The notes: generated by a model from the letters alone, not told the origin. DNA of 64,000 nt from Candidatus Latescibacterota bacterium (GCA_963667175.2 CAXXXF010000003.1:288001-352000); one strand, 5' to 3'; counted from the stretch's first letter, positions 29,798 through 32,223 are shown. A program made the numbers and translations.

Positions 29798-29865
29798 CGC
29801 AGACCTCTCCCCCCGGCCTGCCTGCCGGCAGGCAGGCCCCCTCTCCCGGAGGGAAAGGGGGAGGA
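29798..29865. repeat. C/G-rich REP-like repeat carrying the 24-bp perfect palindrome GGCCTGCCTGCCGGCAGGCAGGCC (29815-29838)
   Basis: Seen directly; inverted copy at ~39950-40012. Confidence 0.8.
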
Positions 29866-29883
29866 AGAACAAAGGAGAATGAT

Positions 29884-31074
29884 ATGACAGTTCGTAAGGA
29901 TGAATGGAAGCCAGGTCCTGAAACGATTGAATCGCTGTCCTCGCTGATCCGGTCGAAACCCGAGGAAGTGCGGTGGACCGAAATCGGATGGGAGATAGAT
30001 CTCTGGACGGCACGGCGTCGCGCGGCCGCGGTGAACAGACCGATGTTCATCTGGGCGATGAACGGCAACCCGCTCGGCTGCGTCTGAAACAACGGCATCG
30101 CGGGCCGTGAGTCCGTTTTCTCCCATCCCGACATCATCCGGATCCTCAACGATTCGTATGTTTCCGTCGCGGACAACTGCAGCTATACCCAGACGCAGAA
30201 AGACGCCAAGGGCGAATTTTTCCGCCTCGTGGCGGAACAGGGTCATTACGGCGGGCGCACCGAACCCACGGCCACCCGCCAGGGCCTGTACGCGTGTACC
30301 TCGGACGGCGAGTTGCTGGGGTCCATCAACACGCGGGATGCCGCCCCCCTCCTGGAACTGCTCGAGCAGAGCCTGGAGAGGTGGCGCAAGCGCCCGGCCT
30401 GGGGCGCGTCCGACGATATTCCCGAATCCTATCCCATCGATCCCGGACTCGGATGGTCCTATCCGGACAACGGCCTGGCGCTCAAAGTCACGGTCCGGGA
30501 CCTCCCGCGGAATTCCGATGGTCTGGACGCGCGGCACAACATCGACTTCGCATGGTTTACGGAAGAAGAGGTTCGGGCTCTGGTACCCGGGAACGCCCGG
30601 CCCGGGCAGACCTGGCGCGCGCCGGATTTCTTCACCAAACGCCTCGCCCTGCGCCATTTCATCGACACGGTCCGCGGCCAATCGCCGGGATGGCGGGAAG
30701 CCAACCTGAAGGTAGGAGAGTTCCGGATGACCGTCGAGTCCGCCGAAGCCGGCCTCATCCGGCTCCGCATGGAAGGACGCATCCACCTCGAAGCCGAACC
30801 CACGTATGAAACCAATCCCTTCAGCAAGCTTACGGTGGACAAGCCACGGGGTCTGAACCTGACCCTCTACGGCATTCTCGCGTTCGATTCCCGGCGGCGG
30901 ACGGTCGAATCCTTCGACGCCGTCGCGACGGGCGACCGCTGGGGATATACCACCTACAACGTGCGCTTCGACGATCCCGGCCCCGCGCCCATCGGTTTCG
31001 CCTTCGAGCGCGCGTCGGACGATCCCATCGAACGCACCCCTCCCGCCTCCATCGGGCGGAATTACTTCGCCTGA
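29884..31074 (+). CDS. Putative selenoprotein (396 aa), thioredoxin-like/SelN-like N-terminal domain with C-V-U motif; UGA at 30085-30087 read as Sec
   Basis: aaggag RBS. ORFs 29884..30087 and 30229..31074 share a frame with only one TGA between them: ...WAMNGNPLGCV-U-NNGIAGRESVFSHPDIIRILNDSYVSV... Hairpin right after the TGA. Confidence 0.75.
30091..30117 (+). promoter_or_regulatory. Candidate bacterial SECIS element
   Basis: AACGG-CA-TCGCG-[GGC]-CGTGA-GT-CCGTT stem-loop; G-starting apical loop at +16 after the UGA. Confidence 0.55.
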
Positions 31075-31105: not shown

Positions 31106-31148
31106 ACGCCCCCGCAACGGATTGTCGACACGTTGCGGGGGCGTTTGT
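31106..31148 (+). terminator. Probable intrinsic terminator
   Basis: acgcccccgcaacg...cgttgcgggggcgt stem followed by ttgt. Confidence 0.6.
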
Positions 31149-31485
31149 GAAGGTGGGGCCTGCCTGCGCCAAGCGGAGCGCGGCAGGCGTGCAAACGGAC
31201 CGGCCGCTTCCTTCGTTGCGGCTCACAAATAAAACACCTTTACAGGCCATGTTGTCACAGCATCGTCACGCATAGACGTGTATATTTGACTCGACGTATT
31301 TGAGCGAAATTGGTCGGAAATATCCGCAAGAACGCAGACGTCGGGAGGAGATGATTCTTCGGCTCACCGGACGTGGACGGAAGAACACTGCAATTCAATG
31401 GAAGGAATATCTGTTTTCATCCGGCTTAGCTATGCTTTGGACCGTGTATTTCTGACGAATTGAGGCGAAAACGGAGGAGAAAAAT

Positions 31486-32223
31486 ATGTCTGTCAAGAGA
31501 TTGATAATAATAACGCGACCGCTTGTGACAATTGCCACGATATTATTTTATCTTGCGATTAGAAGTAGCTTGAGTTGGACTGAAGTAGGAATAATCGTGA
31601 TCGGCGCAATTATCCTCATACCTCTAAATTACCTAACATATTCAGGACGTACAGTTGCCGCAGGTGGGACTGGTTCTGAAGGGAGACTCGTTTCTGAAAA
31701 GAGAGTCGCCACAGTGCCTGTGGGTTCAATCACGATGCTTTTTGTGCTTGCATTTGGTGGCTGGTTAGATCACTTTCGAGGTATTATCTTAGGTTTTATA
31801 GTCGGGCTTATTATTGCACGGATTTTCGCCGGAATGTGTTTTCGCAGTTTGAAGAAAGATCAGGCTGTTCTACTTGATTTTATACGTACGAAAACAAACG
31901 TAGACGAGGCAGATATAACGGCCAATTCATATCTCGGTTGGAGCGGGAGAATATACCTCAGGGTCACGCTTTTAAATCAAACCTTGCGTACTTATCACCA
32001 GCGCGGAGAGGGCAGATATCAGCGATTGGAGGATGTTTATAAAGAGGACACGGTGCACGATATAAGATTACAAGGAGAAACCTTGCGGGGAGATGCACAT
32101 AGTAGGAGTAGTGTTGACAGTGAGGGTCCCGGCCCCGGTAGCGCCTACGAATATACCTACATCCCAGATGAAGATGGATGGCATAGTGCACGGAAAGTAT
32201 CCATAGACGCAAGTTCCGGTTAG
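31486..32223 (+). CDS. Hypothetical membrane protein (about 4 TM helices), low GC
   Basis: ggagga RBS, hydrophobic N-terminal segments, AT-rich codon usage. Confidence 0.65.
   Translation: MSVKRLIIITRPLVTIATILFYLAIRSSLSWTEVGIIVIGAIILIPLNYLTYSGRTVAAGGTGSEGRLVSEKRVATVPVGSITMLFVLAFGGWLDHFRGIILGFIVGLIIARIFAGMCFRSLKKDQAVLLDFIRTKTNVDEADITANSYLGWSGRIYLRVTLLNQTLRTYHQRGEGRYQRLEDVYKEDTVHDIRLQGETLRGDAHSRSSVDSEGPGPGSAYEYTYIPDEDGWHSARKVSIDASSG

What the first reader, a model, noticed from the sequence alone, without database searches (positions are those of the whole stretch)
29884..31074. Hidden selenoprotein: in-frame UGA in a C-x-U redox motif with a SECIS-like hairpin
Seen: a 67-aa ORF with a strong RBS ends ...WAMNGNPLGCV-TGA. 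The same frame then stays open for about 330 more codons (NNGIAGRESVFSHPDIIRILNDSYVSV...). The GTG at 30229 has no evident RBS. A stem-loop with a G-starting apical loop begins 4 nt after the UGA (30091-30117). Known: bacterial Sec insertion needs a hairpin directly 3' of UGA, and Sec usually sits in CxxU/CxU/CU motifs of thioredoxin folds. From memory, the pattern W...A...A....P.F.W......C.U..G...R..VF....I...LN...V.. recalls the selenoprotein N (SelN) redox region. Inference: a 396-aa bacterial SelN-like selenoprotein with an uncharacterised C-terminal domain, which standard pipelines would split into two hypotheticals.
Basis: partly seen in the sequence, partly recalled or inferred. Interest (0 to 1): 0.88.

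Follow-up and report, generated by a model that had tools for sequence, protein, structure and literature searches.

The report
Uncatalogued thioredoxin-fold selenoprotein gene
The apparent stop codon inside this gene almost certainly encodes selenocysteine, so two "hypothetical" ORFs are really one 396-residue redox-type protein from a widespread bacterial family that databases record only as truncated fragments.

Summary
Window 29884-31074 (+) is one gene with an in-frame TGA at 30085-30087, in the motif G-C-V-[TGA]-N-N-G.

- **TGA conservation:** the same column is TGA in 109 of 110 homologous loci examined, from Latescibacterota, Poribacteria, Chloroflexota, Planctomycetota and one Bacillota MAG. 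One locus could not be aligned.
- **Protein conservation:** it runs across both sides of the TGA. Six of the 19 database homologues that span the column carry Cys there.
- **SECIS-like hairpin:** a 6-7 bp hairpin lies 12-30 nt after the TGA (30099-30117, loop CGUGA) and shows strong covariation.
- **Sec machinery:** the genome has selA, selB, tRNA-Sec and a Sec-containing selD.
- **Structure:** a confident AlphaFold model puts the TGA between strand 1 and helix 1 of a thioredoxin-like domain of the DsbD-gamma/Thioredoxin_7/DsbH/UAS class. A 210-residue beta-rich domain with no confident PDB counterpart follows.
- **Family status:** no Pfam or NCBIfam model matches, and it is not in a 2026 inventory of 119 prokaryotic selenoprotein families.
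- **SelN:** specific kinship is not shown. The motif is CxU, not SCUG, and there is no EF-hand.

This is a new family of a known kind. Earlier notes of this scan may describe the same family on other DNA.

The parts
29872..29877 (+). Shine-Dalgarno-like AAGGAG, 6 nt before the ATG
   Evidence: Read directly.
29884..31074 (+). Complete selenoprotein coding sequence: 396 codons including Sec68, plus the TGA terminator at 31072-31074
   Evidence: One search gives the read-through translation. Searches give homologues aligned from about residue 12 to 396 across the TGA.
30079..30081 (+). Cys66 codon (TGC), the likely resolving cysteine of the C-x-U motif
   Evidence: The column is at least 90% conserved in alignment A2. 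One Sec-containing locus, L067, has Ala here.
30085..30087 (+). In-frame TGA, read as selenocysteine 68
   Evidence: TGA at this column in 30 of 30 loci and 79 of 80 loci. Cys at this column in 6 of the 19 database homologues that span it. The only tRNA with anticodon UCA in the genome is tRNA-Sec.
30099..30117 (+). SECIS-like hairpin inside the coding region. Core stem 30100-30105 (GCGGGC) pairs with 30111-30116 (GUCCGU); loop 30106-30110 (CGUGA). The outermost pair 30099/30117 is not formed in this copy.
   Evidence: 86.0% of cells paired against 72.3% shuffled (0 of 500 shuffles reach it); 90 double-sided changes against 22.6; slid registers give 27-50%; 87 of 95 segments form at least 5 of the 6 inner pairs; the loop is CGUGN in 84 of 95.
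29917..30390 (+). Thioredoxin-like domain (about residues 12-169). Strand 1 (residues 54-59) lies before the TGA; helix 1 (72-79) and the rest of the fold lie after it.
   Evidence: AlphaFold2 model with pLDDT 92.5 and pTM 0.91. Foldseek hits 3f9u (E 4e-4, target-normalised TM-score (TMt) 0.63), 7tkv, 3ira and 2dlx.
30439..31071 (+). C-terminal beta-rich domain (about residues 186-396) of unknown fold class. It carries the conserved motifs RDLPR, NxDxxW and RWGxTxYNxRxDDxGPxPxG.
   Evidence: Searches give the conserved columns. The domain model has pLDDT 91.4. Foldseek against the PDB gives 0 matches at E <= 0.001, best TM-score 0.29.
31108..31149 (+). Terminator-like hairpin after the stop: 12-bp perfect stem 31108-31119/31131-31142, 11-nt loop, then GTTTGTG
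   Evidence: Read by eye. The scan does not list it; its pattern allows loops of 3-8 nt and this loop is 11 nt.

Best explanation
Window 29884-31074 is one gene for a 396-residue selenoprotein.

**Decoding.** During translation the UGA at codon 68 is decoded by Sec-tRNA(Sec). SelB delivers it after binding the hairpin 12-30 nt downstream, which lies inside the codons for I-A-G-R-E-S-V. Decoding is inferred from comparative evidence; selenium incorporation was not measured.

**Protein.** It has an N-terminal thioredoxin-like domain of the DsbD-gamma/Thioredoxin_7/DsbH/UAS class. Cys66-Val-Sec68 sits on the loop between strand 1 and helix 1, the place where thioredoxin-fold oxidoreductases carry their CxxC.

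**Likely chemistry (inferred).** Sec68 is the attacking nucleophile and Cys66 resolves it through a selenenylsulfide. That makes the protein a thiol/selenol oxidoreductase.

**C-terminal domain (inferred).** The conserved 210-residue beta-rich domain and the conserved flexible loop QGHYGGRTxPTxTRQG would supply substrate binding.

**Location.** This copy has no signal peptide and looks cytoplasmic. Planctomycetota and Poribacteria versions carry signal peptides and would act in the periplasm.
For: 1. **TGA conserved.** All 47 of 51 match rows that span the column in 168 genomes of the phylum contain an internal TGA. The codon was checked directly: 30 of 30 loci and 79 of 80 loci from five phyla (95 distinct 66-nt segments among the 109 aligned loci).
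2. **Protein conserved on both sides.** The motif is [LIM]F[ILM]WAMNG[NDH]PL[GAS]C[VT]-U-NNG[VI]. W31, W36, P53 and W57, all upstream of the TGA, are invariant or nearly so in 53 sequences.
3. **Uninterrupted homologues exist.** Of 19 database proteins that span the column, 6 have Cys, including the close homologues P0031 and P0084 with C-V-C. Two have W, which I read as a TGA translated as Trp by a gene caller.
4. **Hairpin covariation**, and none for the alternative register. The loop Arg codon is CGT in 84 of 95 segments, against 14.5% CGT among Arg codons in long open frames of this genome. This genome's own selD has a 7-bp hairpin with a GGUC loop at nearly the same distance from its UGA.
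5. **Sec machinery.** selA (474.8 bits), selB (354.9 bits), tRNA-Sec next to them, and selD with one in-frame TGA. selA is over its cut-off in 41 of the 42 phylum genomes that hold the TGA form.
6. **The TGA cuts the thioredoxin fold in two**, so neither ORF could fold alone.
7. **Fold class.** Foldseek hits 3f9u, 7tkv, 3ira and 2dlx, all with probability 0.99-1.00. A profile search of the PDB aligns Sec68 with the first Cys of the CHWC motif of 3ira, at a non-significant E of 0.28. The nearest named ESM Atlas clusters carry Thioredoxin_7, Thioredoxin_2 or Thioredox_DsbH, with scores of 0.76-0.80, so these are leads only.
Against: - No selenium labelling or peptide evidence exists.
- Eleven of the 19 uninterrupted homologues have neither Sec nor Cys at the column (S, D, A, G, R, N). 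The fold therefore does not need a redox residue in every lineage, and several of these proteins are sensor-type fusions.
- One Sec-containing locus (L067) has Ala instead of Cys66, so the resolving cysteine is not universal.
- Eight of 95 segments, seven of them from Planctomycetota MAGs, form 4 or fewer of the 6 inner pairs. RNAfold of each of them alone gives a different or shifted hairpin.
- The single-sequence fold energy is not better than shuffles.
- No Pfam thioredoxin model matches, even at E <= 1.
- No conserved neighbouring gene points to a substrate.
- The co-occurrence with selA is a weak test, because selA is over its cut-off in 131 of 168 genomes of the phylum anyway.
- The loci were found through the peptide pattern FRx[VI]AEQGHY, so they sample the subfamily that keeps that motif.
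Confidence: 0.88

Rival explanations
1. It is a real selenoprotein, but its role is ligand or redox sensing or binding rather than catalytic turnover. The two-domain module would work as a sensor, as in relatives where it forms the C-terminal, presumably extracytoplasmic, part of Ser/Thr kinases or follows an anti-sigma FecR domain.
For: Of 8 long homologues scanned, 4 carry an N-terminal Pkinase domain and 1 carries a FecR domain ahead of the module. In these 5 the Sec column holds C, S, A, D and D. The C-terminal domain has many invariant Arg, Asp, Asn and Trp residues, as a binding site would.
Against: The stand-alone Sec forms keep the costly Sec codon and its hairpin across five phyla. 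That usually marks a catalytic residue (established knowledge about selenoproteins; review PMC13188914, section 7). The fusions are distant (about 28-35% identity) and have mostly lost Sec/Cys.
Confidence: 0.2
2. These are two separate genes, or a pseudogene: a 67-residue peptide that ends at a true stop, plus an independently initiated downstream protein.
For: Gene callers predict exactly this (P0002). Of the 13 homologues fetched, 10 are annotated from an M/V codon four codons after the TGA column.
Against: - The TGA is never TAA or TAG in the 109 aligned loci.
- Uninterrupted Cys and other-residue homologues exist.
- In this copy the codon four codons after the TGA is ATC, not a start.
- The TGA lies in the middle of one thioredoxin fold.
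- A nonsense mutation would not be kept from 36% to 91% protein identity.
Confidence: 0.02
3. TGA is reassigned in this organism (for example to Trp or Gly), so the residue is not selenocysteine.
For: Two database entries (P0055, P0080) show W at the column.
Against: - TGA ends 1377 of 2354 long open frames in this genome, and ends this gene itself.
- The only tRNA with anticodon UCA is tRNA-Sec, and tRNA-Trp is CCA.
- Exactly one internal TGA per gene is seen across the family.
Confidence: 0.01

Closest known systems
DsbD-gamma-like / Thioredoxin_7-type thioredoxin domains (PDB 3f9u, C-terminal domain of a putative exported cytochrome c biogenesis-related protein of Bacteroides fragilis)
   Same: Best structural match of the N-terminal domain: Foldseek E 4.1e-4, probability 1.00, target-normalised TM-score 0.63 over 150 columns. 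The redox motif sits at the strand 1 to helix 1 junction.
   Different: Only 17% identity, and no Pfam Thioredoxin_7 match. The motif is C-x-U followed by NNG instead of CxxC. There is a 35-residue conserved insertion (about residues 99-133) and an extra 210-residue C-terminal domain.
Thioredox_DsbH / YyaL (DUF255) domains (PDB 7tkv from Brucella abortus, 3ira from Methanosarcina mazei)
   Same: Foldseek probability 1.00. The local sequence pattern KP-[IV]-F-[LI]...[redox motif]...R-E-S-F-x-D-x-x-[VI]...L-N-x-x-F-V is shared, and the profile alignment puts Sec68 on the first Cys of CHWC (E 0.28, not significant alone).
   Different: In the 7tkv chain the thioredoxin-like part is about 150 of 612-642 residues, and I did not look at the rest of that chain. 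Here the partner is a beta-rich domain with no PDB counterpart. Those proteins are not known to me as selenoproteins.
Selenoprotein N (SELENON/SEPN1) of animals
   Same: A selenoprotein whose Sec lies next to a Cys in a short redox motif. By my recollection only, its redox region is a thioredoxin-like domain of the UAS type, and a UAS domain (2dlx) is among the Foldseek hits here.
   Different: SELENON has SCUG, an EF-hand and a membrane anchor in the ER (passages of PMC8584023 and PMC9344019). This protein has C-V/T-U, no EF-hand and no membrane segment, Sec at residue 68 rather than near the C-terminus, and a large C-terminal domain. Homology was not testable here.
E. coli fdhF-type bacterial SECIS with SelB-dependent UGA recoding
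   Same: A hairpin immediately 3' of the UGA inside the coding region, with G and U in a small apical loop beginning 18 nt after the UGA. Spacing and stem length resemble this genome's own selD element, which has a GGUC loop.
   Different: The loop is CGUGN rather than GGUC, and no bulged U was identified. Binding by SelB is inferred. The features of the fdhF element are quoted from memory.
[quoted passage not shown]
   Same: They share a C-x-U motif (Table 1 of PMC13188914, read).
   Different: None of the Pfam or NCBIfam models, including these, matches this protein at E <= 1.

Membership tests
Bacterial selenoprotein gene (SelA/SelB/tRNA-Sec-dependent UGA recoding) | In-frame UGA kept as UGA in homologues, never TAA or TAG | tested here: met
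   30 of 30 loci and 79 of 80 loci (L125 not aligned at the column). All 47 of 51 match rows that span the column have an internal TGA.
Bacterial selenoprotein gene (SelA/SelB/tRNA-Sec-dependent UGA recoding) | Cys-containing homologues at the same column, and protein conservation on both sides | tested here: met
   6 of the 19 proteins that span the column have Cys, including the close C-V-C forms P0031 and P0084. Invariant Trp and Pro residues lie upstream of the TGA.
Bacterial selenoprotein gene (SelA/SelB/tRNA-Sec-dependent UGA recoding) | Hairpin just 3' of the UGA with G/U in the apical loop, supported by covariation | tested here: met
   Searches support it, as the negative control register. 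Eight of 95 segments fit poorly.
Bacterial selenoprotein gene (SelA/SelB/tRNA-Sec-dependent UGA recoding) | Genome encodes selA, selB, selC (tRNA-Sec) and selD | tested here: met
   selA, selB and tRNA-Sec are adjacent on contig C6; selD is itself a selenoprotein gene.
Bacterial selenoprotein gene (SelA/SelB/tRNA-Sec-dependent UGA recoding) | Selenium actually incorporated at the UGA | not testable with these tools
   This needs 75Se labelling or mass spectrometry. RNA-library contigs of relatives span the TGA, but that shows neither transcription for certain nor decoding.
Thioredoxin-like fold, Thioredoxin_7 / DsbH / UAS class | Thioredoxin-like fold with the redox motif between strand 1 and helix 1 | tested here: met
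   The model has pLDDT 92.5 with strand 54-59, motif 66-68 and helix 72-79. Foldseek hits 3f9u, 7tkv, 3ira and 2dlx.
Thioredoxin-like fold, Thioredoxin_7 / DsbH / UAS class | Match to the Pfam models PF13899, PF03190 or PF13098 | tested here: not met
   0 families at E <= 1 for the protein. No thioredoxin family in any of the 53 members scanned at E <= 0.01.
Thioredoxin-like fold, Thioredoxin_7 / DsbH / UAS class | CxxC-type motif | tested here: not met
   The motif is C-V/T-U-N-N-G, with one residue between Cys and Sec.
Selenoprotein N (SELENON) | SCUG motif | tested here: not met
   G-C-[VT]-U-N in all 109 aligned loci except L067, which has G-A-V-U. The SCUG definition comes from a passage of PMC8584023.
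Selenoprotein N (SELENON) | EF-hand calcium-binding domain and membrane anchor | tested here: not met
   No Pfam domain of any kind. No hydrophobic N-terminal segment in this copy (by eye).
Selenoprotein N (SELENON) | Detectable sequence or structure homology to SELENON | not testable with these tools
   No SELENON sequence or model was available from any tool. PDB sequence searches gave no such hit. ESM Atlas neighbours of homologue P0031 named no SelN cluster.
Any of the 119 catalogued prokaryotic selenoprotein families (Table 1 of PMC13188914) | Match to the family's Pfam or NCBIfam model | tested here: not met
   Searches gave 0 hits at E <= 1. The few families defined only by CDD or PANTHER ids (cd02966, cd02970, cd10141, cd01144, PTHR43551) could not be scanned. 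I read Table 1 in part 1 of section 7 and in passages, not every row.

The most novel reading that the evidence does not exclude
This widespread two-domain protein is the bacterial relative of the redox domain of animal selenoprotein N, or at least a new selenoenzyme class. A Sec-bearing UAS/Thioredoxin_7-type domain would work together with a previously unseen beta-rich domain. Planctomycetota-like bacteria have re-used the module as the sensor part of Ser/Thr kinases and anti-sigma factors. If so, a tractable bacterial protein could reveal the still unknown chemistry of a human disease gene.
Probability: 0.15. Interest if true: 0.8.

Novelty: new member of a known kind. Interest (0 to 1): 0.52.

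Why it matters
**Annotation.** The find adds a large family to the bacterial selenoproteome and corrects a systematic error. 1516 cluster representatives match at E <= 0.001, and Sec forms occur in at least five phyla. Every named public entry seen here is a 'hypothetical protein', and 247 of the 266 homologous proteins fetched do not reach the Sec column.

**Biology.** It gives a clean example of a SECIS hairpin whose pairing is maintained by coordinated amino-acid changes. It also defines a new two-domain architecture whose C-terminal fold has no solved counterpart.

**Limits.** The principle (Sec in a thioredoxin fold, SelB-type recoding) is well known, and new families of this kind are reported regularly. 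The interest is therefore moderate unless the link to selenoprotein N or a new chemistry is shown.

Tried and rejected
- **Family and sequence searches that found nothing.** Pfam and NCBIfam scans of the read-through protein gave no hits. A Pfam scan of 53 members gave only two single-member chance hits, LPD7 and YmgD. A PDB sequence search with the protein gave nothing. With the profile it gave only non-significant hits, the best relevant one being 3ira at E 0.28.
- **RNA families.** Rfam gave nothing at gathering score over the whole window. Only two chance-level matches lie near the TGA.
- **C-terminal domain.** A Foldseek search with this domain alone gave no match at E <= 0.001; the best probability was 0.44 and the best TM-score 0.29.
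- **Conserved neighbours.** In 84 loci the only recurrent clusters are shadow ORFs of the gene itself, plus a short-chain dehydrogenase-like ORF in 18 of 84 loci. That is a very common family and I did not count it as linkage.
- **ESM Atlas.** With homologue P0031 all first hits were unnamed 'hypothetical' clusters scoring below 0.9.
- **Literature.** Searches for a bacterial SelN relative or for this family found nothing relevant. The supplementary tables of BSepDB (PMC13326102) and of the review could not be opened and might list it.
- **Sequencing runs.** Contigs from three RNA libraries (two studies), 90-95% alike, bridge the TGA, and the shown rows list no change at 30085-30087; 49 further rows were not shown. 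The tool warns that DNA can be present in such libraries, so I do not count this as evidence of expression. Parts of the stretch without cover in those runs mean nothing.
- **Earlier notes of the scan.** Sequence look-ups gave nothing. Word look-ups gave probable relatives.

Full report
**Observation.**
- The window holds an ATG at 29884 behind AAGGAG (29872-29877). The 67-codon ORF ends ...WAMNGNPLGCV-TGA (30085-30087), and the same frame stays open for 328 more codons to TGA at 31072-31074.
- Gene-calling logic gives a 67-residue ORF plus a 281-residue ORF from GTG 30229. The public collection holds exactly that 281-residue product (P0002).
- After the stop there is a perfect 12-bp hairpin (31108-31142) followed by GTTTGTG (by eye).

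**Is the TGA conserved?**
- A six-frame search of the 168 genomes of the phylum found the gene in 44 of them. Of the 51 match rows, 47 span the column. All 47 contain an internal TGA, at 36-91% identity and aligned from about residue 12 to 396.
- I checked the codon itself: 30 of 30 loci are TGA.
- A scan of one genome per species across bacteria returned 80 loci. By their record titles they come from Latescibacterota, MAGs labelled Gemmatimonadota, Poribacteria, Chloroflexota (including Thermomicrobiales and Thermoflexus), Planctomycetota (Pirellulaceae, Mariniblastus and others) and one Bacillota MAG. Of these, 79 have TGA at the column and one (L125) could not be aligned there.
- Some genomes were reached by both routes. 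The 109 aligned loci give 95 distinct 66-nt segments.
- The scan used the peptide pattern FRx[VI]AEQGHY, so it samples the subfamily that keeps that motif.
- The motif around the codon is nearly fixed: [LIM]F[ILM]WAMNG[NDH]PL[GAS]C[VT]-TGA-NNG[VI].

**Uninterrupted homologues.**
- Of 266 homologous proteins retrieved, only 19 reach the column. Six have Cys. These include P0031 and P0084, which read ...PLGCVCANG... and are close relatives (P0031 has 49% identity).
- Two have W. I take this to be the same TGA translated as Trp by a gene caller. Eleven have S, D, A, G, R or N.
- The other 247 do not reach the column. Of the 13 I read in full, 10 begin at an M/V codon four codons after the column.

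**Machinery and code.**
- The genome has selA (474.8 bits), selB (354.9 bits) and tRNA-Sec side by side on contig C6. It also has selD with one in-frame TGA.
- tRNA-Sec is the only tRNA with anticodon UCA, and TGA is the commonest terminator of long open frames (1377 of 2354). Reassignment of TGA is excluded.
- selA is over its cut-off in 41 of the 42 phylum genomes that carry the TGA form. The exception is 80% complete. This test is weak, because 131 of 168 genomes have selA.

**The RNA element.**
On 95 distinct homologous segments that register shows no covariation.
- A register shifted by a few bases does: seven pairs, 30099-30105 with 30111-30117, and loop 30106-30110. Here 86.0% of cells pair against 72.3% in shuffles (0 of 500 shuffles reach it). 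There are 90 double-sided changes against 22.6. The covariation score is 0.471 against 0.233, and slid registers give 27-50%.
- Pairs switch between G-C, C-G, A-U and G-U through coordinated changes of two different amino-acid codons, for example Gly/Leu to Arg/Arg.
- 87 of 95 segments form at least 5 of the 6 inner pairs, and the loop is CGUGN in 84 of 95. Its Arg codon is CGT in 84 of 95, although CGT makes up only 14.5% of Arg codons in this genome's long open frames.
- Eight segments, seven of them from Planctomycetota MAGs, fit poorly. RNAfold of each alone gives a different or shifted hairpin.
- The genome's own selD has a 7-bp stem with a GGUC loop starting 18 nt after its UGA. Here the loop starts 19 nt after.
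- Rfam has no matching family.

**The protein.**
- With a 53-sequence alignment, AlphaFold2 gives a confident model (pLDDT 92.5, pTM 0.91). Strand 54-59 precedes the TGA. Residues 66-68 (C-V-U) lie on the following loop, and helix 72-79 follows. The TGA therefore cuts one domain in two.
- Foldseek against the PDB matches the first 150 residues or so to these entries, all with probability 0.99-1.00:
  - 3f9u, the C-terminal domain of an exported cytochrome c biogenesis-related protein (E 4e-4, target-normalised TM-score 0.63);
  - 7tkv and 3ira, both Thioredox_DsbH-type;
  - 2dlx, the UAS domain of human UBXD7.
- A profile search of PDB sequences aligns Sec68 with the first Cys of CHWC in 3ira (E 0.28, not significant alone).
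- The ESM Atlas neighbours of homologue P0031 are unnamed clusters. The nearest named ones carry Thioredoxin_7, Thioredoxin_2 or DsbH (scores 0.76-0.80, leads only).
- No Pfam or NCBIfam model matches.
- Residues 186-396 form a beta-rich domain that was modelled confidently on its own (pLDDT 91.4). It has no PDB match at E <= 0.001.

**Context and variants.**
- No neighbouring gene is conserved. Here the neighbours are a topoisomerase IV/gyrase A-type gene, a short-chain dehydrogenase, an ORF without a family and an Ldh_2-family gene.
- Versions from Planctomycetota and Poribacteria start with signal-peptide-like segments. This copy and the Chloroflexota ones do not (by eye).
- Among distant homologues, the whole module follows a Ser/Thr kinase domain in 4 of the 8 long proteins scanned, and follows a FecR domain in one. 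Another carries a PQQ-like beta-propeller.

**Mechanism.**
- Supported by comparative evidence: the recoding signals and the fold.
- Inferred: SelB-dependent insertion of Sec68; Sec68 as the nucleophile with Cys66 as resolving residue; substrate binding by the C-terminal domain and by the conserved, low-confidence loop 121-133.
- A sensing or binding role is the main rival on function.

**Comparison with what is known.**
- The 2026 review PMC13188914 lists 119 prokaryotic selenoprotein families, each tied to a domain model. I read part 1 of section 7 and further passages. None of the Pfam or NCBIfam models hits this protein.
- BSepDB (PMC13326102, passages) builds on the same lists. Its supplementary table could not be opened.
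- SELENON is described in the passages I read as an ER membrane protein with an EF-hand and an SCUG motif (PMC8584023; PMC9344019). Those features are absent here. Homology could not be tested, so 'SelN-like' stays a lead.
- Word look-ups in this scan's earlier notes found three findings on other genomes: e1-761531, e1-2320717 and e1-4022744. They describe a Cys-Thr-Sec, roughly 388-residue, DsbD-gamma-like exported protein of Planctomycetota and Verrucomicrobiota, called undescribed. They probably concern the same family. I could not compare sequences, and sequence look-ups found nothing.

**Verdict.** This is a real, widespread and apparently uncatalogued selenoprotein family, and a new member of a known kind. 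Its function is unknown beyond a probable redox role.

Noticed in passing
G000 contig C6:264737-268256 (L001, L005) and C13:163286-164209 (L012): selA, selB and tRNA-Sec lie side by side. selD is itself a selenoprotein gene (motif ...TCGU-AAK...) with a 7-bp hairpin and GGUC loop after its UGA.
   Followed up: partly
window 29815-29838: A perfect 24-nt palindrome (GGCCTGCCTGCC/GGCAGGCAGGCC) lies between the dehydrogenase gene and the selenoprotein gene. One RNA-library contig of a relative lacks 20 nt here, and one DNA contig lacks 4 nt, so the element varies between strains.
   Followed up: no
proteins P0155, P0157, P0167, P0168, P0234, P0138, P0247: Distant homologues carry the whole two-domain module fused behind a Ser/Thr kinase domain (with Kelch repeats in P0168) or a FecR anti-sigma domain, or ahead of a PQQ-like beta-propeller or a SecDF P1-head domain. 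The Sec column holds C, S, A or D in the six of them that reach it.
   Followed up: partly
L060, L087, L093, L100, L101, L113, L114, L116, L122, L123: Sec-containing members from Planctomycetota and Poribacteria begin with signal-peptide-like hydrophobic segments. The Latescibacterota and Chloroflexota members do not. The family seems to have cytoplasmic and exported branches (judged by eye only).
   Followed up: no
G042 (three matches); G038, G039, G082, G089 (two each): Several genomes of the phylum carry two or three paralogues of the gene. Nearly all of these matches have their own in-frame TGA; one match in G039 covers only the C-terminal part.
   Followed up: no
L119:1322-3682: In one Planctomycetales MAG the frame upstream of the Sec codon is open for 559 codons, with the first start codon 447 codons before the TGA. 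This hints at a Sec-containing member with a large N-terminal extension.
   Followed up: no
proteins P0055 and P0080: Two public predictions read the Sec codon as W (GCVWNNG). These entries were presumably called with a TGA=Trp code, so they look complete but carry a wrong residue.
   Followed up: no
window 31486-32223 (+): The 245-residue ORF downstream has hydrophobic N-terminal segments and no Pfam family.
   Followed up: no
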